Assembly (NCBI GenBank): GCA_963795805.1
Contig: CAWCIV010000001.1
Span: 778,749-842,748 of the forward strand
DNA: 64,000 nucleotides
Reading direction: 5' to 3'
DNA from: an uncultured Chloroflexia bacterium
Lineage (GTDB): Bacteria > Chloroflexota > Dormibacteria > CF-121
Program-made: the position numbers and the translations under genes
Notes under the pieces: generated by a model
Database searches by the model: none
Seen by the model: the letters and a program-made list of their open reading frames with translations, nothing else
Told to the model about the DNA's origin: nothing
In this document: positions 26,604 to 35,342 of the stretch, piece after piece
How positions within the stretch are numbered: position 1 is the stretch's first letter
Layout: each line of letters starts with the position of its first letter

Positions 26604-29153
26604 ATGACCAGCGCCGAGATCCGCCAGCGTTTTCTCAACTTCTTCAAAGAGCGGGACCACAAGGTGTTGCCGAGCTCCTCCCTGATCCCGTTCGGCGATC
26701 CTACCCTCCTGCTTACCAGCGCCGGGATGGTGCAGTTCAAACCCTACTTCCTTGGGCAGGCGCGGCCGCCCCAGCCACGGGCCGTCACCTCCCAGAAGGT
26801 CTTTCGAACGGTGGACGTCGAAGTGGTCGGGCATGACGGCCATCACCTGACCTTTTTCGAGATGCTGGGGAACTTCTCCTTTGGCGACTATTTCAAGGAG
26901 AAGGCGATCCCGTACGCCTACCAATTCCTGACGGACGAGCTCGGGCTCGAGCCGGCGCGGCTCTGGGCCGGTATTCACAACGACGACGACGAGAGTTACC
27001 AGATCTGGACGACCAGCACCCCGATGCCGCCGGAGCGTATCCGGCGCTTCGGTGACGACTACAACTTCTGGGCAGCAGGCCCGACCGGGCCCTGCGGTCC
27101 GGACTCCGAGATCCACTACGACTGGGGTGCGGAGTACAGCTGCGGCCGGCCGGACTGCGGGCCAAACTGTGAGCACTGCGATCGCTTCCTCGAGATCTGG
27201 AACCTGGTCTTCATGCAGTGGGACCGCGATCAGGCCGGGAACCGAACGCCCCTCGAGAGGAAGGGGATCGACACCGGCATGGGCCTGGAGCGCATCACGG
27301 CCGTCGTCAACCTGGAGCGTAAGGGCGTCTTCGAAACCGACCTGCTCCGGCCTTTGATCTCCCACTGGGAAGAGCTGACCGGTCAGCCCTATCAATCGGA
27401 CGAGCGCGTTGACGTCTCCCTCCGGGTGCTGGCCGACCACAGTCGCGGCGCCACCATGCTGCTCGCCGATGGCGTCGCCCCCTCCAACGAGGGGAGAGGC
27501 TACGTGCTCCGCCGGCTGATTCGGCGCGCCATGGTGCATGCCCGCCGAATCGGAGCGCGGGAGGGGCTCTCGTCCAGCGTCCCGGCGGTGTCGGAGATCC
27601 TCGGCGGGATCTACCCCGAACTCGCGACCAATGTCCAGCAGATCAGCGAAACCTTACGAGGCGAGGAGGAGCGCTTTGCGATCGCGCTTCGCCAGGGAAT
27701 GGAACGGCTCGAGGGGCTGATCGAGCGGAACGCCCTGAGTCCACAAGAGGTGTTCTTCCTTCACGACACGCTTGGTTTTCCGATCGAGCTCAGCGTCGAA
27801 CTCGCCCAGGAACGGGGGATCAGGATCGATACGGCCCAGGTCGAGGCCCTGATGGAAGGCCAGCGGGCGAAGAGCCGGACATCGTCAGGGAGCTTCACGG
27901 GGCCGGTGAGCCGGACCGCGAGCCGCTTCGTCGGCTACGAGCAACTCGAGGCGGAGGCCAGGGTGGTCGACAGCTTCGAGGTCCCGGGCCATGGCGATCA
28001 GGGCGACGTCTTTCTGGACGTCACGCCCTTTTACGCCGAGAAGGGTGGCCAGATCTTCGACACCGGCCGGCTCGTATGGGACGGCGGCAGTGGCGAGGTG
28101 ATCGATGTCCAGCAGCAGGCCGAGGCGATCAGACACCGGCTGCGCGGCGCCAGGCGTCCGCAGGTCGGGACCCGTGTCCGGGCCATCGTCGATCCAGCGC
28201 GCCGCGCTGCCGTGGCTCGCCACCATTCCGCCACCCACCTGCTGCACCGGGCGCTCCGGGACGTGCTCGGGGAGGGTGCCGCGCAGGCGGGCTCGGCGGT
28301 GCTGCCGGATCGGGCCACCTTCGACTTCCGGTTTCCCCGCGCCCTCGAGCCGGTGGAGTTGGCGCGGGTCTCGCGCCTGCTCAATGAAAAGGTCCGAGCC
28401 AACCTGGAACGACGGGTCGAGGAACTCCCACTGCAGGCGGCGATCGAGAGCGGCGCGGTAGCGCTCTTCGATGAGAAATACGGCGAAACCGTCCGCGTGG
28501 TCTCATTCGGGACCTGGGCGCGAGAGCTCTGTGGGGGGACCCATGTGACGCGCAGCGGCGAGGTCGGATTCGTCCTGCTTGGCTCCGATCGGAGCGTCGC
28601 GGCGGGTGTGCGGCGCATCGAGCTGCAGGCCGGCGAGGCGGCCGAGGTCGCCGTGCAAGCGCGTGATCGTACCCTGGCCCAACTAAGCGAGGCCCTTCGG
28701 GCCGGCGTCCTTGAGCTCCCGGCGCGGGTGGAGAGCCTCCAGGCCGAGCTGAAACGGCTCCTGAAGGAGATCGCGCAGCTCAGGCAGCGCCTCGCCGCCG
28801 GCGGGGAGGCTCAGGTGGAAAAGGCGGAGGTCAGCGGCGTGACGTTGGTGCTGCAGCGGGTCGACGCGACCCCGCCGGAGCTGCTCGCCGTTGCGGACCA
28901 CGTGCTCAATGGCGCCAATGGCAACACGGTCGCCATCGTCGTCGGTGGGCGCAGCGTCGCCGTCAAGGTCGCCGCCCCGCTGGCGGACCGACTGCCGGCC
29001 GGTGCCCTCGTGCAGGCGTTCCAGGCGGTGGCGGGCGGGAAGGGAGGCGGACGTGGCCAGGTGGGCCAGGGTGGCGGGATCGACCCGGCTCGCGTCGACG
29101 ACGCCTTCCGCGGCGTCCAGGATTTCGTCCGCAAGCAACTAAAGGGACCATGA
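26604..29153 (+). CDS. alaS: Alanine-tRNA ligase
   Basis: DPTLL.TSAGMVQFK, HLTFFEMLGNFSFGDYFK, GPCGP.SEI, HSATHLL, ELCGGTHV, GKGGG. Confidence 0.98.
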   Translation: MTSAEIRQRFLNFFKERDHKVLPSSSLIPFGDPTLLLTSAGMVQFKPYFLGQARPPQPRAVTSQKVFRTVDVEVVGHDGHHLTFFEMLGNFSFGDYFKEKAIPYAYQFLTDELGLEPARLWAGIHNDDDESYQIWTTSTPMPPERIRRFGDDYNFWAAGPTGPCGPDSEIHYDWGAEYSCGRPDCGPNCEHCDRFLEIWNLVFMQWDRDQAGNRTPLERKGIDTGMGLERITAVVNLERKGVFETDLLRPLISHWEELTGQPYQSDERVDVSLRVLADHSRGATMLLADGVAPSNEGRGYVLRRLIRRAMVHARRIGAREGLSSSVPAVSEILGGIYPELATNVQQISETLRGEEERFAIALRQGMERLEGLIERNALSPQEVFFLHDTLGFPIELSVELAQERGIRIDTAQVEALMEGQRAKSRTSSGSFTGPVSRTASRFVGYEQLEAEARVVDSFEVPGHGDQGDVFLDVTPFYAEKGGQIFDTGRLVWDGGSGEVIDVQQQAEAIRHRLRGARRPQVGTRVRAIVDPARRAAVARHHSATHLLHRALRDVLGEGAAQAGSAVLPDRATFDFRFPRALEPVELARVSRLLNEKVRANLERRVEELPLQAAIESGAVALFDEKYGETVRVVSFGTWARELCGGTHVTRSGEVGFVLLGSDRSVAAGVRRIELQAGEAAEVAVQARDRTLAQLSEALRAGVLELPARVESLQAELKRLLKEIAQLRQRLAAGGEAQVEKAEVSGVTLVLQRVDATPPELLAVADHVLNGANGNTVAIVVGGRSVAVKVAAPLADRLPAGALVQAFQAVAGGKGGGRGQVGQGGGIDPARVDDAFRGVQDFVRKQLKGP

Positions 29154-30424
29154 AGCTCAAACTCAGAGACCGTCTCAAACGGCTGCGGCGCGGAGCGGAC
29201 TACGAAAACTTCTACACGGCTCTTGATATCGGAACCGAGTACATCAAGGCCCTGGTCGTCAAGCGCGAGGGCAAGAACGGCGTCGTGCTCGGTGCCTCAC
29301 GACAACGCCAGGTCTTTTCGGACATGCAGTCAGGGGTGCCGTCTGACATCCAGGGCATCATCGACAGCTGCGACCGGGCGATGTCGGCGGCGGAGGACAT
29401 GTGCGACACGATCCCGGGCCAGGCTGTGATCGGCATCGCCGGCGAGCAGGTGAAGGGCTTCAGCACCTCGGTGACGGTACCGCGTGCCGACCCGGATCTC
29501 AAGGTGAACGAAACCGAATTGCTTCGCACCCTTGAGATCGTCCAGAAACGGGCCCTTCGCGAGGCTCGCCACTCCATGAGCCTCGAGCTTGGCGTGCCCG
29601 ACGTCAACGTCAAGCTGATCAACTCCGCGGTCACGAATGTCAAGATCGACGGCTTTGCGGTCAGCAATCCGTTTGGGTTCCAGGGCCGCCAGATGGTGAT
29701 CACCGTCTTCAACACCTTTGCGCCCCTCACCCATGTTGGTGCGCTCCAGACGATCGCGGCTGAGCTGGACCTCGAGTTGATCGCGACGGTGGCCGAACCG
29801 TACGCCATGGCGCGATGTGCCGCGACCGACGAGGTATACGACGCCGGCGGCATCTTCATCGACATCGGCGGGGGCACCACCGATGTGGCGCTGGTGCGCA
29901 ACGGCGGCATCGAAGGGACCCGAATGTTCCCGATCGGCGGCCGCGTCTTCACCAAGAAGCTTGCCTCCCGGTTTGGCATCTCGTTTGCCGACGCGGAGGC
30001 GGTCAAGCTCCGGCATTCCAAGAACGAGTTACCTTCCGCGCATGCCGAGCGCGTGCATGCCGTCCTGAACCGAGACGCGGAGGTGCTGGTCGAGGGGGTG
30101 GCGATCACGCTGCAGGAGATGGCTCAAGGGGATCGGCTGCCCACCGCGATCTACCTGGCCGGCGGTGGCAGCGCCCTTCCGGAGGTACGCGACCAACTGG
30201 AAGCGTTCCCCTGGGCCGACAAGCTGCCCTTCGCTCGCAAGCCGGCGGTTCACGTGCTCCGGCCGGTCGACATCCGTGGAATCTATGACTCGACTGGTTT
30301 GCTCCTTGACCAACAGGACATCACGCCAATGGGCCTGGCGTTTCATGCGATCCAGCATCAGTCGGAGGAGCAGGCGCCTCTATTCGGGCTGATGCGAAGA
30401 GTACTCAAAGTGATGAAGGTATGA
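29150..30424 (+). CDS. FtsA-like actin-superfamily ATPase (outside the dcw cluster)
   Basis: Phosphate-1 ALDIGTEYIK, connect AEPYA, phosphate-2 IDIGGGTTD, adenosine LAGGGS.L; amphipathic C-terminus LFGLMRRVLKVMKV. Confidence 0.85.
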   Translation: MKLKLRDRLKRLRRGADYENFYTALDIGTEYIKALVVKREGKNGVVLGASRQRQVFSDMQSGVPSDIQGIIDSCDRAMSAAEDMCDTIPGQAVIGIAGEQVKGFSTSVTVPRADPDLKVNETELLRTLEIVQKRALREARHSMSLELGVPDVNVKLINSAVTNVKIDGFAVSNPFGFQGRQMVITVFNTFAPLTHVGALQTIAAELDLELIATVAEPYAMARCAATDEVYDAGGIFIDIGGGTTDVALVRNGGIEGTRMFPIGGRVFTKKLASRFGISFADAEAVKLRHSKNELPSAHAERVHAVLNRDAEVLVEGVAITLQEMAQGDRLPTAIYLAGGGSALPEVRDQLEAFPWADKLPFARKPAVHVLRPVDIRGIYDSTGLLLDQQDITPMGLAFHAIQHQSEEQAPLFGLMRRVLKVMKV

Positions 30425-30499
30425 GCACGACGAAACCTGACACCGTAACGACTGGACAATCGGTGACGTTTCCGGTATGACAGGCTGCGACCAAAGAGG

Positions 30500-32072
30500 A
30501 TGAAGACACTGGCCAAGCTGCTGTACGTCGAGGCGGACGAGGAGATCACGGACCTCGTCGACCGGCTTCGGGACCTCAGTCTCGAGGATGCGGTCACGTT
30601 CGTCGTGCCCGAACGCTCACGCGCCCTTCAAAGCCCGATGAGCTTCAGACTGCTCAAGCGGTATGCCGACAGCTACGGCAAGCACGTCAACGTGATCAGC
30701 GGCGACGCGCGGCTGCAGGCCCTCTCATTGGAAACCGGATTTTCGGCCTATCCAAGCCTGCTCGCCTACGACAGCGGGGCCGAGGTTCACCGGGCTGGAG
30801 GCCTAGAGGCCGAGACCACGCCGGCGATTGCGGCGGCGGGCCCGGTGGCCGCCCCGGCACGGCGTCGGGAAGCCCCGGTTGTTTCCGGTCCCCCGAAGCG
30901 TCCGGCACCGGCCGCGATCAAGGCAAGCCCCCCGTCGTTTCGCAATTACCGGCCCTACCTGATCGGGGCCGCCATCATCGGCGTCCTGGCATTGCTGGCG
31001 CTCGTGCTCTATGTTCCGACGGCGACCGCCACACTCTCCGTCCGAGGAACGCCCGTGGCGACCGAGGTTCAACTGATCGGCGCGCCAGGCACAGCCATTG
31101 GTTCGACGGATCACTTCACGACCCAGGCGCTCCACTCGAGCCAGTCGCAAACAGTCCAGGGGACCGCCACCGGGCAAAAACAAATCGCCGCCGTGGCGGC
31201 AACCGGCCGAGTGACCTTCACGCTGAGCTGCTTCCTGTGCACGGATAACCTGCCCAAGGGCCTTGTCGTTCGGACTGACGGGGGTAAGCGCTACGCGACG
31301 ACGCAGAAGGCAAGCATGACCGGACCCTTCGGTACGACGACCGTTCCGGTAAGCGCTGTGACCGCCGGGGCTGATGGAAATACCGACCCGCACACCATCA
31401 CAACAATCGAGGGCAACACGGATCCCGACAACTTGAAAGTTGACAATCCTCAGGCGACCACAGGTGGCGCCGACGCGCGCACCGCGACACTCGTCCAGCA
31501 GTCCGATATCGACAGCGTCGGAGCGGCGTTATGCGAAGGACGCGCTCCCGAAGGTCCAGGCGGACTTGACGACAAAGGCCGCCGGTCTCCACATGGTTCC
31601 CGTTGGGAACGGTGTCCAGACCACGGTCACCGCGGACCGCAAGGTGGGTGACGAGTTGCAAGCCCCGTTCAACTTCAACGTCACGGTCGCCGTGGCGGGC
31701 GATGCCGTCGCCTTCGACGAGAAGGCGGTCAAGGCTCTGCTGCAGAGTGCAATCGCGCATAAGATCCCGCCGGGATCGCAGTTGACCAACAATCCGAAAC
31801 TCACGTACGACCCGGTCAACCCCACCAGCGACGGAAATATCACGCTGAACGGCCATGCCGTCGGCAGCTACACCCCGGTCTTCATCGAGGCCAATATCCG
31901 CAGCAACCTGAAAGGCAAAACGCCATCGAGCGCCCATGTGTTCCTGCAATCCTTGCCAAACGTTGTGGACGCCCGAGTCACCCAGGCTCCCTTTGGACTG
32001 CCCTGGCTGCCCCTCTTCTCCTCGCGTATCACGCTGAAGATCCAGGAGGCCACGGGCAGCCCGAGTCCGTGA
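30500..32072 (+). CDS. Bitopic membrane protein with an extracellular baseplate-J/gp47-like domain (frameshifted near 31525)
   Basis: Cytoplasmic alpha/beta N-domain, Pro-rich linker, TM (YLIGAAIIGVLALLALVLYV), then ATG.VTF...LPKG.VV.T..G..YAT...VPV.A...GA.GN.....IT....V.N....TGG, resembling baseplate J. Joined from ORFs 30500..31651 and 31440..32072. The start may be CTG 30509. Confidence 0.75.
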
Positions 32073-32518
32073 GGATCCTCGCGATCGACCCCGGCACACG
32101 CCGCCTGGGTCTCGCGCTGAGTGATCCGTCGGGAACCGTCGCGCTTCCGCTTCGGGTGCTGACGCGGCGGTCGCAGCCGGAAGATCTCAAGGAACTCGCC
32201 GGGATCGTCAGGGAGCAGGGCGTGGAATTGGTCCTGGTCGGTCTGCCGCGGATGATGGACGGATCGATCGACGTGGCGGCCAGGAACGCACAGGCATTCG
32301 GGGCGGAGGTCGGGAAGGCAGCCGGGGTCCCGGTCGAATTCTGGGACGAGCGGCTGACCACGGTTGCCGCCGAACGCTTTCTGATCGAGCAGGGCAAACG
32401 ACGGTCGCAGCGGCGCCAGGATGTGGACCGGGTGGCGGCCACGCTATTGTTGCAGGGTTACCTCGACTATCGAGGTAGCCGAGGTTCAGGAGGCTCAGAT
32501 GCCGGACTTACCAGATAA
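32069..32518 (+). CDS. ruvX: Putative pre-16S rRNA nuclease RuvX/YqgF
   Basis: MRILAIDPG.RR.GLALSD, VGLP, WDERLTT, D.VAA..LLQGYL. Confidence 0.95.
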   Translation: MRILAIDPGTRRLGLALSDPSGTVALPLRVLTRRSQPEDLKELAGIVREQGVELVLVGLPRMMDGSIDVAARNAQAFGAEVGKAAGVPVEFWDERLTTVAAERFLIEQGKRRSQRRQDVDRVAATLLLQGYLDYRGSRGSGGSDAGLTR

Positions 32519-32783
32519 CGACGGCGAGAACCAGACCATCGAGCTGGTCAATGAGAAGACCGGGGAGGAAGAGAGCTACGTCGTTCACGACGTCGCGAAG
32601 ATCGAAGGCGAGACCTACTACGTATTGCAGGCGGAGGCCGACGAGGATCGCGTCCTGATCTTGCGCCGCGAGGGCGAATCGCTGGTCACGCTCGACGATG
32701 AAGAGCACGACCGCGTACTCGAGCAGCTTGAGGAATTCGAAGAGAGCGAAGCCGACGACGAGAACGGCGAGGTGGACCGCTAA
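32499..32783 (+). CDS. DUF1292 family acidic protein
   Basis: AGGAGG SD, ATG 32499; acidic, I.L.NE.GEE..Y...Y..L pattern; conserved ruvX-DUF1292-mltG context. Confidence 0.8.
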   Translation: MPDLPDNDGENQTIELVNEKTGEEESYVVHDVAKIEGETYYVLQAEADEDRVLILRREGESLVTLDDEEHDRVLEQLEEFEESEADDENGEVDR

Positions 32784-33839
32784 CTGGGCGTCAGTGGCCG
32801 GCCGCAGCCGTCGCGCAAGCGCGGCTGCCTGCCGTGGGTCCTGGTCGTCCTGTTCTTCATTCCAGCGGTGATTGGCATCCCTGGGGTGCTCGGCTACAAC
32901 TGGGTCCAGCACCAACTCCACAGCCCCGCGAATCCGGGCGGCGGAACGGTTCGGATCGTCGTCGCGCCAGGCGCCACTTTTCACGAGGTCGCCGACACCC
33001 TCCACCGCGCCGGGCTGGTCGATTCGACACTGGTCTTCGACCTGTATGCGCGGTATCGGCATCTCGACCGCAATATCCAAGCGGGCGCCTATCAGCTGGA
33101 CCGCAACAAGGACATGGTCCAGATCCTTCAGGCGCTTCAGACGGCGATCCCCGAGGAGCTCTTCGTCACGATCCCCGAGGGGTACACCATCAAGAAGACG
33201 GCGGCGATGCTGGACAAGGGCACCCTGATCAAGGGGGCCGACTATCTCAAGGTTGCCCAGCAGGGCCAGTTCAGCTATGACTTCCTCAGCGGGCGGCCCG
33301 CGGGCTCATCGCTCGAGGGCTTTCTTTTCCCCGACACCTATCTCGTGCCCCGAACCACGACCGCCACGCAACTGATCACCCTCCAGCTGGATGCCTTCAA
33401 GAAATTGTGGGACGCCAGCCGCAAGGACCTGGCTGCGCAGCGAAAGCTGACGCCGTTGCAGGTGGTGACGATCGCCTCGATGATCGAGCGTGAGGCCCTC
33501 TTCGATGAGGATCGGCCAGTGGTCGCGAGCGTGATCTACAACCGGCTGGCCGCAGGTTGGCCGCTGCAGATCGATGCCACTGTGCTCTACGCCAAGGGAG
33601 TCTGGCAATCGACGGTCACGCTCGATGACCTCAAGATCCAGTCTCCTTACAACACCTACCTGCATACGGGATTACCCCCCGGGCCGATCGCCAATCCAGG
33701 CCTGAAGGCGATCGACGCCGCCCTCAAGCCATCCCAGACCGGCTACTTCTTCTACCTGTCCGACTCGAAAGGTCACAACCATTACGCGAAAACCAACGAC
33801 GAATTCAATCAGCTCAAGAAGCAGTACGGGCTCGGCTAA
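32784..33839 (+). CDS. mltG: Endolytic transglycosylase MltG (CTG start proposed)
   Basis: TIPEG, LEGFLFPDTY, IASMIERE, ASVIYNRL, LQIDAT, SPYNTY...GLPPGPI.NPG. The N-terminal TM helix is complete only from CTG 32784. Confidence 0.93.
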   Translation: MGVSGRPQPSRKRGCLPWVLVVLFFIPAVIGIPGVLGYNWVQHQLHSPANPGGGTVRIVVAPGATFHEVADTLHRAGLVDSTLVFDLYARYRHLDRNIQAGAYQLDRNKDMVQILQALQTAIPEELFVTIPEGYTIKKTAAMLDKGTLIKGADYLKVAQQGQFSYDFLSGRPAGSSLEGFLFPDTYLVPRTTTATQLITLQLDAFKKLWDASRKDLAAQRKLTPLQVVTIASMIEREALFDEDRPVVASVIYNRLAAGWPLQIDATVLYAKGVWQSTVTLDDLKIQSPYNTYLHTGLPPGPIANPGLKAIDAALKPSQTGYFFYLSDSKGHNHYAKTNDEFNQLKKQYGLG

Positions 33840-34674
33840 GGGCGGCTCACGCCTCGTCCTGCTCGCCGACGCGCCAAGAGACCAGCTGGCGGAGGCCCTC
33901 TACGGGGCCGCCTTCGCGGCTGCCGGCATGCAAACCGTGTGTGAGTCGCAAACCGTCAGCCGGGCCGACCTTGGGGCGACGGTCGCCAGCATGCGGAACG
34001 ACGAAACGGTGCTTGGCGCGGCCGTGATGCGCCCCCACACGGTTGCCGTTACCACCATGCTCGATGGGCTCGGGCCCGAGGTCCAGTCTGTCCGTGCGGT
34101 CAACGTCATCAGCCACCGGGCTGGTGGCCTCGTCGGTTGGAATACCGACCGGCCGGCTTTCTCGCAAGCGCTGGAGGACGCGGGCTACCAGGCGCGGGGG
34201 CGGTCGGCGCTCATCCTGGGTGCCGGCGGGGCGGCACGAGCCGCTGGTGACGCGCTGCGGACTCAGGCATCTCGGGTCTATGTCGCGGGCCAGGACCTCG
34301 GCGAGGCGCGCGCCCTCTGCTACGACCTCGACATCAGCAGCGGTGGCCCGACGCCGCTCGGGTCGCTGTCGCTTGTGGTGCCCAAGGTCGACCTGATCGT
34401 CAACGCCACGCCGGTCGGCAGCGATGGGGAGTCCCGACCATTCCCGATCGAGTGGATCACGCCGACGCAGTTCCTTTTCGATCTCGTCTACGACCCTCCG
34501 ATGACACCGCTTGTGAGGGGGGCACGGGCCCGGGGCGCCCGGGCCATCAACGGCCTGACCATGCTCTTGAACCAGGCCCTCGCCGCCTTCGAGATCTGGA
34601 CCGGGACGTCTGCGCCGGAGCCGGCCATGCGAGCCGCGCTGCAGCGGGCGGTTGTCGGCAGGCTCGCCCCGTGA
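33826..34674 (+). CDS. Shikimate dehydrogenase-like protein with a divergent substrate-binding domain (start uncertain)
   Basis: AVN, NTD, ILGAGGAARA, VNATPVG, DLVYDP..T.L, GL.MLL.QA...FEIW. The N-terminal AroE-like segment continues upstream of ATG 33928. Confidence 0.8.
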   Translation, partial: TGSAKGGSRLVLLADAPRDQLAEALYGAAFAAAGMQTVCESQTVSRADLGATVASMRNDETVLGAAVMRPHTVAVTTMLDGLGPEVQSVRAVNVISHRAGGLVGWNTDRPAFSQALEDAGYQARGRSALILGAGGAARAAGDALRTQASRVYVAGQDLGEARALCYDLDISSGGPTPLGSLSLVVPKVDLIVNATPVGSDGESRPFPIEWITPTQFLFDLVYDPPMTPLVRGARARGARAINGLTMLLNQALAAFEIWTGTSAPEPAMRAALQRAVVGRLAP

Positions 34675-35342
34675 GCCACGTGCTCCTGGCCGGGCTCTGG
34701 GGCATCCTCGGCGCCGCCGTCGGCATGGGCGCCAACTACCTCACCCGGTGGCTGGCGCGCGTGGAGGAGCTCGAGTTCGCCCAAGGCCGGCGCGAGGTCC
34801 TCCTCATGCCGGCGCTCTGCCTCGTGCTCTTTTTTGTCTTCGCATTCAAGTACGGGTTCGGGCGCGTGCTCATCATCGACTCGGTGTACGTGGCTATCCT
34901 CGTGCAGGTCCTTGCCTTCGATTTCAAGACCCGCTACATCCTCGACCTGGTTATGTTCCCTTCGTGGCTGATCGCCTTCGGTCTCGCGTTCGTCACACCC
35001 TGGAATCCTTTTCTGACCTGGCCCTGGCCGGACTGGCGAACCGCTCCGGTCGCTGCGCTGATTGCCGGCGGCGTGTTCTTCCTCCTCTTTATCGGCGGGC
35101 AGTTGCTCCTGGGCGCCGAAGCCTTCGGGTTCGGAGACGTGAAGCTCGCCGTCTTCATCGGCATGGCGACGGGCATCTCAGACCTGCGCGTGGCGCACGC
35201 ACTGATCGACGGCGTGTTCCTCGGAGGGTTCGTGGCCCTCGTCCTGTTGCTCACGCGGATTCGATCCATGAGGGACGCCGTCGCCTATGGACCATTTCTC
35301 GCGCTGGGTACGATCGTGACCCTGTTCGTGCAGCCGCCATGA
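34671..35342 (+). CDS. A24 family prepilin peptidase (no N-terminal Zn/methylase domain)
   Basis: Multi-TM; AFD and FGFGDVKLA catalytic aspartates, YGPFLA C-terminus; GTGA overlap. Confidence 0.85.
   Translation: MSHVLLAGLWGILGAAVGMGANYLTRWLARVEELEFAQGRREVLLMPALCLVLFFVFAFKYGFGRVLIIDSVYVAILVQVLAFDFKTRYILDLVMFPSWLIAFGLAFVTPWNPFLTWPWPDWRTAPVAALIAGGVFFLLFIGGQLLLGAEAFGFGDVKLAVFIGMATGISDLRVAHALIDGVFLGGFVALVLLLTRIRSMRDAVAYGPFLALGTIVTLFVQPP

What the first reader, a model, noticed from the sequence alone, without database searches (positions are those of the whole stretch)
29150..33839. Actin-like ATPase plus bitopic baseplate-J-like protein in the alaS-ruvX-mltG operon: candidate uncharacterised trans-envelope system
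Seen: an FtsA-like protein with intact actin motifs and amphipathic termini, not linked to ftsZ/dcw genes. It is followed by a protein with a cytoplasmic alpha/beta domain (its end, RLLKRYADSYGKHVNVISGDARLQALSLETGF, recalls STAS folds), a Pro-rich linker, one TM and an extracellular baseplate-J/gp47-like region. No sheath, tube, spike or other phage genes are nearby. The pair overlaps alaS (ATGA) and ruvX (GTGA) and precedes the peptidoglycan terminase mltG. Established: bacterial actins work with bitopic partners (MreB-RodZ, FtsA-FtsN, PilM-PilN), and baseplate J forms ring-like wedge assemblies in contractile tails. Inference: a domesticated phage baseplate fold linked to a cytoskeletal actin builds an envelope scaffold for division, shape or spore/dormancy morphogenesis. 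This is the strongest candidate for a novel system in the window.
Basis: partly seen in the sequence, partly recalled or inferred. Interest (0 to 1): 0.78.

Follow-up and report, generated by a model that had tools for sequence, protein, structure and literature searches.

The report
FtsA-like ATPase with baseplate-like membrane partner
Between the housekeeping genes alaS and ruvX-mltG this soil bacterium carries a strongly conserved, unstudied gene pair, a second FtsA-type actin-like protein and a single-pass membrane protein whose outer part is built like a phage baseplate wedge, which probably links an internal scaffold to the cell envelope.

Summary
Window 29150-30424 encodes a 424-aa FtsA-type actin-fold protein with intact nucleotide motifs. 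30500-32072 encodes a ~523-aa bitopic protein: a 95-aa cytoplasmic alpha/beta domain, a disordered linker, one TM helix and a Baseplate_J ectodomain. One extra base at 31529-31531 breaks this copy's frame, and contigs of 4 of 4 public runs lack that base.

The genome has a canonical ftsA-ftsZ pair in a dcw cluster and an MreB elsewhere, so this is a third actin homologue. On a small tree it is the sister clade of FtsA.

The order alaS, actin-like, partner, ruvX, mltG recurs in:
- 76 of 76 Dormibacteria loci (actin-like gene directly upstream);
- 15 of 20 loci from other Chloroflexota families;
- 42 of 42 low-GC metagenome contigs of at least 9 kb.

A complex prediction places the partner's N-domain on the actin-like protein (ipSAE 0.77; best control 0.00), at columns invariant on both sides. 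In one Chloroflexota genome the same ectodomain is fused to Ser/Thr kinases.

No paper on the pair was found. The ring, spore and "domesticated phage" claims are not. The function is still inferred. Earlier notes of this scan describe the same module in other genomes.

The parts
26604..29153 (+). alaS (alanyl-tRNA synthetase, 849 aa), the upstream border of the slot
   Evidence: ORF. tblastn found it upstream of the pair in 69 of 76 Dormibacteria loci. Named from its sequence and from synteny; no family scan was run on it.
29150..30424 (+). FtsA-type actin-fold ATPase paralogue (424 aa). It has phosphate-1 (DIGT), phosphate-2 (DIGGGTTD) and adenosine (GGGSALPE) motifs and a C-terminal amphipathic helix.
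   Evidence: PF14450 58.3 bits and TIGR01174 107.2 bits, below the 175.85 cut-off. Motifs. 24% identical to the genome's own FtsA. Sister clade of the dcw FtsA. C-termini.
30500..30784 (+). Cytoplasmic N-domain of the partner (residues 1-95): a four-strand, four-helix alpha/beta domain, nearly invariant within the class. It is the predicted docking site for the actin-like protein.
   Evidence: AF2 pLDDT 92.0. Alignments. Complex ipSAE 0.77 against 0.00 for controls.
30797..30937 (+). Pro/Ala-rich disordered linker (about residues 100-146)
   Evidence: pLDDT below 50 at 101-130 and 133-142. Length varies among homologues.
30938..31012 (+). Single transmembrane helix (residues 147-171). Basic residues lie on its N-terminal side, so the N-terminus is read as inside.
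   Evidence: Helix 147-171 in the model. Sequence. The topology is an inference.
31019..32072 (+). Baseplate-J-like ectodomain (residues about 174-523). Its frame is broken by one extra base at 31529-31531.
   Evidence: PF04865 40.6 bits. Foldseek E 9e-8 to phage baseplate wedge proteins. VIA Z 15.0 for 8kea_d (rmsd 34.4, 152 aligned) and Z 12.8 for Mu 9ki1_H (rmsd 2.1, 91 aligned). Frameshift.
32069..32518 (+). ruvX (YqgF-type nuclease, 149 aa). Its start overlaps the partner's stop codon.
   Evidence: PF03652 138.9 bits. The same 4-base overlap occurs in 28 of 62 Dormibacteria loci measured.
32421..32783 (+). DUF1292-like small acidic protein. The true start is probably later than 32421.
   Evidence: PF06949 21.4 bits, below the cut-off of 24.
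32784..33839 (+). mltG (YceG-family). The first canonical start is GTG at 32868, but a TM-like segment is in frame upstream of it.
   Evidence: PF02618 278.7 bits. Upstream frame.

Best explanation
The two genes encode a two-protein module that spans the cytoplasmic membrane.

How I think it works:
- The first protein is an ancient paralogue of FtsA. It keeps the ATP-binding motifs and a C-terminal amphipathic helix that would hold it on the inner face of the membrane.
- It binds the small, highly conserved cytoplasmic N-domain of the second protein through the segment between its phosphate-2 and adenosine motifs (subdomain IIB in actin-fold proteins).
- The second protein crosses the membrane once and displays a multi-domain ectodomain homologous to phage baseplate wedge protein J.
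- The pair thus couples a nucleotide-dependent cytoplasmic scaffold to an extracytoplasmic binding or oligomerising module. Its most likely role is in cell-envelope growth or division, beside the ruvX-mltG genes with which it appears to be co-transcribed.

Shown: the gene pair, its domain make-up, its fixed position and wide conservation, and its separateness from FtsA and MreB.
Predicted: the direct contact.
Inferred: membrane tethering, polymerisation and the envelope role.

In this assembly the partner gene carries a one-base insertion. It is either an assembly error or a very recent private mutation.
For: Identity of the parts:
- Family hits.
- AF2 model of the partner, pLDDT 90.2.
- Fold matches to baseplate wedge proteins of phages A-1(L), phiCD508, Mu, phi812 and P1, diffocin, T4 gp6 and T6SS TssF, with Z from 15.0 down to 8.2.

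A third actin homologue:
- Canonical FtsA (PF14450 147.7 bits, SHS2 105.2) followed by FtsZ lies in a dcw cluster at C1:392-401 kb. MreB lies at C1:463886-464887.
- On a tree of 24 proteins the 10 alaS-linked proteins form one clade (SH-aLRT 98). It is sister to the 6 dcw FtsA proteins (97), with MreB as outgroup.

Conservation:
- Dormibacteria loci: actin-like gene directly upstream of the partner in 76 of 76; alaS upstream in 69 of 76; ruvX downstream in 62 of 76. The missing cases are cut by contig ends.
- Class Dormibacteria genomes with the partner: 46 of 46. Sampled Chloroflexota genomes: 225 of 401 (a floor).
- The same block occurs in 15 of 20 loci from other Chloroflexota families.
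- It occurs in 42 of 42 low-GC metagenome loci of at least 9 kb. There the actin-like protein is 42-48% identical to the window's, against 32-42% for alaS.
- An empty site, alaS-ruvX-mltG with nothing between, is seen in G091.

Binding:
- ipSAE 0.77 in three runs (0.78, 0.77, 0.76). The best of 3 controls scored 0.00.
- That mark was reached by 58 of 80 solved complexes and 2 of 110 mismatched pairs.
- Partner pLDDT was at least 84, and the runs agreed in at least 90% of contacts.
- Several interface residues fall on columns that are invariant in both alignments: partner E15, I16, T17, V20, R24, L51, Y55; actin-like F260, V312, L313, G316. The rest of each interface lies in the same conserved stretches.

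Nucleotide motifs: canonical in all six commonest variants of the other-Chloroflexota group (13 of 14 sequences shown) and of the low-GC group (47 of 53 shown).

Modular ectodomain: the same TM-plus-ectodomain is fused to Hanks-type kinase domains in two tandem genes of G111 and in an Atlas cluster.

Operon: no terminator-like site on the + strand between 25500 and 34810, plus overlapping stop and start codons.
Against: - There is no experimental or expression evidence of any kind.
- The complex score is a model's own confidence and used my own alignments, so its calibration holds only roughly.
- The actin-side motif GGRxFT is a general actin-fold feature, so its conservation is partly structural.
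- The partner's presence does not track mltG. Families f15, f18, f26 and f29 have mltG in 25/25, 12/12, 11/11 and 7/7 genomes but the partner in 1/25, 0/12, 0/11 and 0/7. Five Dormibacteria genomes with the partner gave no mltG match.
- Two lineages have alaS-partner-ruvX with no detectable actin-like gene beside it (L095 and L100).
- One Dormibacteria subclade has a degenerate phosphate-2 motif, GARTTT, in 24 of the 56 sequences shown. ATP use may therefore not be universal.
- The window's own copy is frameshifted.
- The N-terminal 80 or so residues that precede the barrel domain in phage J proteins have no counterpart in the model. Baseplate-like assembly therefore cannot be assumed.
Confidence: 0.55

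Rival explanations
1. The pair is an assembly platform for a surface fibre or a secretion system, working like PilM-PilN of type IV pili or GspL of type II secretion. The ectodomain would serve as the outer alignment part.
For: - PF11104 PilM_2 scores 33.7 bits on the C-terminal half.
- A type IV prepilin peptidase gene (PF01478, 32.2 bits) lies 1.6 kb downstream of mltG.
- Earlier notes of this scan report a sortase beside fused forms in CPR genomes (not checked here).
Against: - TIGR01175 pilM scores 37.7 bits, below the cut-off of 133, whereas ftsA scores 107.2.
- The PDB profile search gives FtsA 79.7 bits over positions 13-285 and PilM 49.9 bits over the C-terminal half only.
- No pilN/O/Q, secretion ATPase or pilin gene lies in the block in any of the three groups of loci. 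Each has alaS before the pair and ruvX-mltG after it.
- No PilM sequence was included in the tree.
Confidence: 0.12
2. The module is mainly a sensor. The baseplate-like ectodomain reads the state of the envelope, and the actin-fold protein acts as a nucleotide-dependent switch or adaptor rather than as a filament.
For: - The same TM-plus-ectodomain is joined to Ser/Thr kinase domains in G111 (two tandem genes of 840 and 836 aa; Pkinase 156.9 and 139.3 bits) and in an 834-aa Atlas cluster.
- This recalls kinases with sensing ectodomains (recalled).
- The phosphate-2 motif has decayed in one subclade while the interface is kept.
Against: - The actin-like protein is more conserved than alaS across phylum-level distances.
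- It keeps the FtsA-type build and a C-terminal amphipathic helix, as filament-forming membrane tethers do.
- No output domain or regulator is conserved beside the pair.
Confidence: 0.18
3. The second gene is a remnant or a component of a phage tail or contractile injection system.
For: - The Baseplate_J hit and the fold matches.
- The genome does hold a tail-like cluster with sheath, gp25 and another Baseplate_J gene.
Against: - That cluster is on another contig (C4:1225771-1234905).
- The alaS-linked gene sits in a fixed housekeeping slot in hundreds of genomes.
- It has a cytoplasmic domain and a TM helix that phage J proteins lack.
- No sheath, tube or gp25 gene lies nearby.
Confidence: 0.03
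4. In this particular genome the partner gene is a true pseudogene and the module is no longer working.
For: - One extra base at 31529-31531 splits the frame.
- 6 of 63 untruncated Dormibacteria loci also lack a long open frame from the match start.
Against: - Contigs of 4 of 4 public runs lack one base at 31531 or 31535. Two of them differ from the window at only 3 other letters over about 270-350 bases.
- Both halves are 91% identical to P0002 with no other stop or decay.
- The closest locus, L005, is in frame.
- The assembly's completeness is 89.68% in 4 contigs, which would fit scattered indel errors.
Confidence: 0.2

Closest known systems
FtsA with its bitopic divisome partners such as FtsN (FtsA: TIGR01174, PF14450; structures 7q6f and 7q6i)
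   Same: - It is the best sequence relative: 107.2 bits to TIGR01174 and 79.7 bits to 7q6f over positions 13-285, which covers the region of the 1C insert.
- It has actin-fold motifs, a C-terminal amphipathic helix, and a single-pass membrane partner predicted to dock on it.
   Different: - It is a separate clade, 24% identical to the genome's own FtsA.
- It scores below the family cut-off, and Pfam's SHS2_FTSA model does not detect it.
- It is not linked to ftsZ.
- Its partner contributes a folded 95-aa domain, not a short peptide, and carries a baseplate-like ectodomain.
- That FtsN binds FtsA through a short cytoplasmic peptide is recalled, not tested.
MreB-RodZ (elongasome actin and its bitopic adaptor)
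   Same: A cytoplasmic actin homologue is bound by a folded cytoplasmic domain of a single-pass membrane protein that has an extracytoplasmic domain. Its neighbours relate to cell-wall enzymes. (How MreB-RodZ is built is recalled.)
   Different: - MreB is the outgroup in the tree, and the genome has its own MreB.
- The N-domain is a beta-alpha repeat rather than the DNA-binding-type fold recalled for RodZ.
- The predicted contact lies in the IIB segment.
PilM-PilN and GspL (actin-fold platform proteins of type IV pili and type II secretion)
   Same: An actin-fold protein of the FtsA/PilM branch is coupled to, or in GspL fused with, a bitopic protein (recalled).
   Different: Scores to PilM models are weak. 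No pilus or secretion genes lie in the conserved block.
Baseplate wedge protein J family (Mu gp47, P2 J, T4 gp6, T6SS TssF; PF04865)
   Same: - Sequence hit above the cut-off.
- Fold match across the barrel and C-terminal domains, model 230-520 against chain residues from about 83 to the end, Z 15.0 down to 8.2.
   Different: - It is anchored in the membrane by a TM helix and has a cytoplasmic domain.
- The first 80 or so residues of phage J proteins are not matched.
- No sheath, tube, gp25 or I/TssG-like partner is nearby.
- It is a core chromosomal gene.
Bitopic Ser/Thr kinases with sensing ectodomains (PASTA kinases such as PknB or PrkC; recalled)
   Same: In Chloroflexota the same TM-plus-ectodomain also follows a Hanks-type kinase domain. 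The ectodomain therefore behaves as an exchangeable outer module.
   Different: The ectodomain is baseplate-J-like rather than PASTA. The window's protein has no kinase domain.

Membership tests
FtsA (TIGR01174 / PF14450) | Actin-fold nucleotide motifs: phosphate 1, phosphate 2, adenosine | tested here: met
   DIGT, DIGGGTTD and GGGSALPE are present and conserved in the three groups of loci.
FtsA (TIGR01174 / PF14450) | Score above the curated equivalog cut-off | tested here: not met
   TIGR01174 scores 107.2 bits against a cut-off of 175.85. The domain model PF14450 is passed (58.3 against 31.8).
FtsA (TIGR01174 / PF14450) | SHS2 (1C) insert | tested here: inconclusive
   PF02491 was not reported at E <= 0.1, while the genome's own FtsA scores 105.2 bits. 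The region still aligns to FtsA's insert. No structure of this protein was predicted.
FtsA (TIGR01174 / PF14450) | Gene beside ftsZ in the dcw cluster | tested here: not met
   Canonical ftsA-ftsZ lies at C1:398790-401353. This gene lies between alaS and ruvX.
FtsA (TIGR01174 / PF14450) | Falls inside the FtsA clade | tested here: not met
   It is a sister clade with long stems (SH-aLRT 98 and 97) on a tree of 24 proteins with no PilM included.
FtsA (TIGR01174 / PF14450) | Binds the FtsZ C-terminal peptide | not tested
PilM (PF11104 / TIGR01175) | Family score, and neighbouring pilN/pilO genes | tested here: not met
   TIGR01175 scores 37.7 bits against 133. PF11104 scores 33.7 bits on profile positions 180-295 only. 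No pilN/O lies in the block.
Baseplate J (PF04865) | Sequence match above the gathering score | tested here: met
   40.6 bits against 21.1, residues 223-326. Homologues carry the same Pfam label.
Baseplate J (PF04865) | Multi-domain wedge fold | tested here: met
   Foldseek probability 1.00 with 330-356 aligned columns. VIA Z 15.0 for 8kea_d (rmsd 34.4, 152 aligned) and Z 12.8 for 9ki1_H (rmsd 2.1, 91 aligned, 29% identity). The high global rmsd shows that the domains are set differently.
Baseplate J (PF04865) | N-terminal part that precedes the barrel domain in phage J proteins | tested here: inconclusive
   Alignments begin at model residue 229-231 and chain residue 74-121. Model residues 174-229 are unmatched.
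Baseplate J (PF04865) | Part of a tail or injection gene cluster (sheath, tube, gp25, I/TssG) | tested here: not met
   Only housekeeping neighbours. The genome's sheath, gp25 and J cluster is on contig C4.
STAS domain (N-domain of the partner) | Fold match that stands out from other alpha/beta folds | tested here: inconclusive
   Best Z is 7.3 and none reaches 8. STAS chains score Z 6.0-7.2 (rmsd 3.0-3.6, 84-91 aligned), tied with CoA-ligase, mutase and receiver folds. Foldseek finds no hit at E <= 0.001, and Pfam and NCBIfam find no hit.

The most novel reading that the evidence does not exclude
This is a third, ancient actin-based envelope machine, beside the FtsA divisome and the MreB elongasome. 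It would have been inherited by the common stock of Chloroflexota (including Dormibacteria) and the candidate phyla radiation. In it, a membrane-bound FtsA-like filament organises, through a dedicated docking domain, an array of baseplate-wedge-like modules outside the cell. The fold known from phage baseplates would then have a cellular counterpart of comparable age.
Probability: 0.3. Interest if true: 0.9.

Novelty: new variant of a known kind. Interest (0 to 1): 0.74.

Why it matters
Bacterial actin homologues with bitopic partners organise division, elongation and pilus assembly. Here a further pair of that kind is more conserved than alanyl-tRNA synthetase across very distant lineages. 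It sits in a fixed core-genome slot in many Chloroflexota and in low-GC, probably CPR, genomes. Little is known about the envelope and division of these groups. The pair also puts a phage baseplate fold on the cell surface as an exchangeable ectodomain, which is used by Ser/Thr kinases as well. If it is confirmed, it gives a concrete, testable entry into the cell biology of these mostly uncultured groups. It also bears on the question of shared ancestry between cellular proteins and baseplate proteins.

Tried and rejected
- **First locus scan.** The 63-row alignment had no stretch conserved enough to search with. I used a narrower alignment instead. That pattern found only Dormibacteria-type records.
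- **Long forms as fusions.** P0304 and P0295 (691-703 aa) show no actin similarity (hhalign probability about 0.1). Pfam found nothing in their N-terminal parts. I therefore did not verify the fused actin-ectodomain proteins that earlier notes report in CPR.
- **Taxonomy from cluster names.** It gave little.
- **Link to peptidoglycan.** I tried to tie the partner's presence to mltG. There is no strict co-occurrence, and one search used a stricter first look, so its absences are uncertain.
- **N-domain fold.** No match stands out.
- **MreB long branch.** The long MreB branch in the tree made me suspect indel errors in the assembly, but the gene is in one frame.
- **RNA.** No RNA holder was listed for the stretch. 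The runs laid were contigs only, so expression is untested.
- **Promoter and terminator scan.** It was no better than shuffles.
- **Literature.** Searches found no paper on the pair. Passages of PMC10608941 cover only dcw genes in Dehalococcoidia. The term search of the main text of PMC10633639 found no occurrence of FtsA, baseplate, MltG or alaS. Its supplementary Tn-seq tables could not be seen and may hold fitness data for Saccharibacteria homologues.

Full report
**What is there**

On the + strand the window carries, in order:
- alaS, 26604-29153;
- a 424-aa ORF, 29150-30424, whose ATG overlaps the alaS stop;
- after a 75-base gap, a gene running 30500-32072;
- ruvX, 32069-32518, whose GTG overlaps that gene's stop;
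- a DUF1292-like ORF;
- mltG, ending at 33839.

Upstream lies a sigma-70 family gene. Downstream lie aroE, a type IV prepilin peptidase, a bPH_2 protein, efp, an Asp23 gene and nusB. No terminator-like site lies on the + strand between 25500 and 34810, although that scan is no better than shuffles.

The genome (3.2 Mb, 4 contigs, 89.68% complete) belongs to the Dormibacteria by the names on its closest protein relatives. The genome tool files this group as a class within a large phylum. From the range of genome sizes and the Atlas labels I read that phylum as Chloroflexota.

**The first protein**

It matches FtsA best:
- PF14450, 58.3 bits;
- TIGR01174, 107.2 bits, below the equivalog cut-off of 175.85;
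- pilM TIGR01175, 37.7 bits;
- MreB models, about 25-30 bits.

A profile of 26 family members finds solved FtsA first (7q6f, 79.7 bits, positions 13-285). PilM follows (3jc8, 49.9 bits, C-terminal half only).

The phosphate-1 (DIGT), connect (VAEPYA), phosphate-2 (DIGGGTTD) and adenosine (GGGSALPE) motifs are all present. The last 15 or so residues form a conserved amphipathic pattern in every lineage examined. From sequence alone I read this as a membrane-targeting helix of the FtsA type.

It is not the cell's FtsA. A canonical FtsA (PF14450 147.7 bits, SHS2_FTSA 105.2 bits) followed by FtsZ sits at the end of a run of ORFs that I read, by position only, as a dcw cluster at C1:392-401 kb. An MreB sits at C1:463886-464887. 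The two FtsA-type proteins are 24% identical over 344 residues.

On a tree of 24 proteins from six genomes plus six further Dormibacteria loci:
- the 10 alaS-linked proteins form one clade (SH-aLRT 98);
- it is sister to the 6 dcw FtsA proteins (97);
- MreB-type proteins are the outgroup.

No PilM was in that tree.

**The second protein**

In this assembly it is split into two frames. Homologues are single proteins of 516-560 aa. The closest, P0002 (523 aa), is 91% identical to both pieces. The break is one extra base at 31529-31531.

Contigs from 4 of 4 public soil runs leave out one base at 31531 (X1, X2, X4) or 31535 (X3). Those of X1 and X2 differ from the window at only 3 other letters. 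Of 63 Dormibacteria loci not cut by a contig end, 57 have one long frame of 522-593 codons. The shift is therefore private to this assembly. Whether it is an error or a fresh mutation cannot be told here.

An AlphaFold2 model of P0002 on 63 sequences (mean pLDDT 90.2) shows four parts:
- an alpha/beta domain, residues 1-95;
- a disordered Pro/Ala-rich linker;
- a TM helix, 147-171;
- a beta-rich multi-domain ectodomain, 174-516.

Pfam places Baseplate_J on residues 223-326 (40.6 bits). Foldseek's best hits are baseplate wedge proteins of phages phi812, A-1(L), Mu, XM1 and phiCD508 and of diffocin (E from 9e-8 to 4e-5, 330-356 aligned columns).

The second aligner gives:
- Z 15.0 for 8kea_d (rmsd 34.4, 152 aligned);
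- Z 14.9 for 9gb2_A (rmsd 32.1, 142 aligned);
- Z 12.8 for Mu 9ki1_H (rmsd 2.1, 91 aligned, 29% identity);
- Z 8.7 for T4 5iv5_A (rmsd 42.0, 149 aligned);
- Z 8.2 for TssF 6n38_I (rmsd 2.5, 85 aligned).

The large global rmsd values mean that the domains match but are arranged differently. The first 80 or so residues of the phage proteins have no counterpart.

The N-domain, modelled alone (pLDDT 92.0), is a generic four-strand beta-alpha repeat. Its best Z is 7.3 and none reaches 8. STAS domains are among many tied hits, and Foldseek finds nothing at E <= 0.001.

**Conservation**

The partner family is large. It has 6802 representative clusters at E <= 0.001 and 221 at E <= 1e-30. Its forms are an N-domain form of about 520-600 aa, a form of about 360-400 aa without the N-domain, and longer forms.

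In 76 Dormibacteria-type loci:
- the actin-like gene lies directly upstream in 76 of 76;
- alaS lies before it in 69 of 76;
- ruvX lies after the partner in 62 of 76.

The missing cases are all cut by contig ends.

Across 401 sampled genomes of the phylum, the partner was found in 225 at E <= 1e-10. This is a floor, because a stricter first look was used. Within the class it was found in 46 of 46 genomes. These tallies include genomes flagged as unpublished.

In 20 loci from 17 genomes of other families:
- 15 show the actin-like gene beside the partner, next to alaS;
- 2 (L095, L100) show alaS-partner-ruvX with no detectable actin-like gene;
- 3 are extra copies elsewhere.

One genome without the pair has alaS, ruvX and mltG directly adjacent, an empty site (G091).

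A scan of metagenome contigs with the N-domain motif of a low-GC subgroup returned 80 loci. All 42 loci of at least 9 kb (GC 0.30-0.55) have the actin-like gene directly upstream. alaS lies before it in 38 and mltG after the partner in 38. In these contigs the actin-like protein is 42-48% identical to the window's. alaS is only 32-42% identical.

The Atlas lists look-alike clusters labelled Chloroflexota, Saccharimonadota and Minisyncoccota. The low-GC contigs are therefore probably CPR bacteria, though their taxonomy was not given.

Within Dormibacteria the actin-like protein stays at 75-96% identity (the 120 best hits). The partner's N-domain is almost invariant, while the rest of the partner drops to 55-60%.

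**Do the two proteins touch?**

One complex job was run with the actin-like alignment and the N-domain alignment:
- ipSAE was 0.78, 0.77 and 0.76 in three runs;
- the best of 3 controls scored 0.00;
- the mark was reached by 58 of 80 solved complexes and 2 of 110 mismatched pairs in the tool's calibration, which holds only roughly because my own alignments were used;
- partner pLDDT was at least 84, and the runs agreed in at least 90% of contacts.

The interface on the partner is residues 13-24, 44-55 and 70-74. On the actin-like protein it is 99, 146-149, 260-270 and 308-320.

Several of the named interface residues are invariant columns of the class alignments: E15, I16, T17, V20, R24, L51 and Y55 on the partner, and F260, V312, L313 and G316 on the actin-like protein. 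Other invariant residues (L19, L52; G263, G264, R265, E311) lie inside the same stretches but were not themselves named as contacts.

Residues 260-320 lie between the phosphate-2 and adenosine motifs. In actin-fold proteins this is the segment that forms subdomain IIB (established knowledge). As I recall, it is also where FtsA holds the FtsZ tail. Part of this conservation (GGRxFT) is a general actin-fold feature. This is a prediction, not a measurement.

**A further clue to the ectodomain**

In genome G111 two tandem genes (840 and 836 aa) join a Hanks-type kinase domain (Pkinase 156.9 and 139.3 bits) to a Baseplate_J region. An Atlas cluster of 834-aa kinases aligns to partner residues 165-518.

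The TM-plus-ectodomain is therefore an exchangeable outer module serving different cytoplasmic heads. That fits a binding, sensing or oligomerising role outside the membrane better than a role as a phage part.

The genome also has a real tail-like cluster with sheath, gp25 and its own Baseplate_J gene. It lies on another contig (C4:1225771-1234905).

**Reading**

The best-supported account is a two-protein trans-membrane module. A membrane-associated, nucleotide-binding FtsA paralogue docks the N-domain of a bitopic protein that presents a baseplate-wedge-like ectodomain.

Its role in envelope growth or division is inferred from three things:
- the family of the first protein;
- analogy with FtsA-FtsN, MreB-RodZ and PilM-PilN;
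- the fixed neighbours ruvX-mltG.

The evidence against a simple tie to peptidoglycan is real. Several families have mltG in every genome but no detected partner, and five Dormibacteria genomes have the partner without an mltG match. One Dormibacteria subclade has lost the canonical phosphate-2 motif (GARTTT) while keeping the interface.

The rivals are a pilus or secretion platform, a sensor, a phage remnant, and a pseudogene in this genome. They are weighed in their own sections.

**Novelty**

Six literature searches found no paper on the pair or on a non-phage Baseplate_J envelope protein. I saw only search listings and abstract beginnings, plus passages of PMC10608941 and PMC10633639. Supplementary tables were closed.

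Earlier AI notes of this same scan describe the same module in other Dormibacteria, in Limnocylindria and in CPR genomes, where fused forms with a sortase are reported. They agree with what I found independently. The fused forms were not verified here.

I rate it a new variant of a known kind: an actin homologue with a bitopic adaptor, here with an unprecedented ectodomain and an unusually wide and strict conservation.

Noticed in passing
G000 contig C4:1225771-1234905 (outside the window): A phage-tail or contractile-injection-like cluster: sheath (PF04984, 72.4 bits), gp25 (PF04965, 82.6 bits) and a second Baseplate_J gene (56.1 bits, 687-codon open frame). It is unrelated in position to the alaS-linked gene.
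   Followed up: partly
L089:4160-6682 and L089:6921-9431 (genome G111): Two tandem genes encode a Hanks-type Ser/Thr kinase domain followed by a Baseplate_J-like region (840 and 836 aa). The Atlas also lists an 834-aa kinase cluster with this build in Chloroflexota.
   Followed up: partly
window 32784-32867: The hydrophobic N-terminal segment of MltG (RKRGCLPWVLVVLFFIPAV...) is in frame upstream of the first ATG/GTG/TTG, which is at 32868. The same holds in the closest relative, L005. The gene probably starts at a non-canonical codon right after the DUF1292 stop.
   Followed up: partly
L039, L043, L046, L048, L051, L053 and other loci (alignment A5): One Dormibacteria subclade has a degenerate phosphate-2 motif (DIGARTTT or DVGAATTQ instead of DIGGGTTD) in the actin-like protein, while the predicted partner interface is kept.
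   Followed up: partly
L103 (genome G091, C1:2280000-2298000): An empty site: alaS, ruvX and mltG lie directly adjacent with no actin-like or baseplate-like gene between them. This genome still has a canonical FtsA and MreB-type genes.
   Followed up: partly
L095 and L100 (genomes G228 and G250): alaS is followed by the baseplate-like partner and then ruvX, with no detectable actin-like gene in between. I did not check whether that gene lies elsewhere in these genomes.
   Followed up: no
L085, L086, L087, L094 (genomes G273, G147, G111, G138): In these larger genomes the alaS-linked partner is 891-963 aa long. Several hundred extra residues lie between the N-domain and the ectodomain.
   Followed up: no
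L025, L027, L029, L052, L058, L064: In 6 of 63 untruncated Dormibacteria loci the partner frame is interrupted or short when read from the match start. These may be assembly errors in metagenome bins or artefacts of where the match begins.
   Followed up: no
window 34452-35342: A type IV prepilin peptidase (PF01478, 32.2 bits) lies in a long ORF whose first part overlaps the end of aroE. A weak PilM_2-like match (23.2 bits) lies on contig C4:773957-774418.
   Followed up: no
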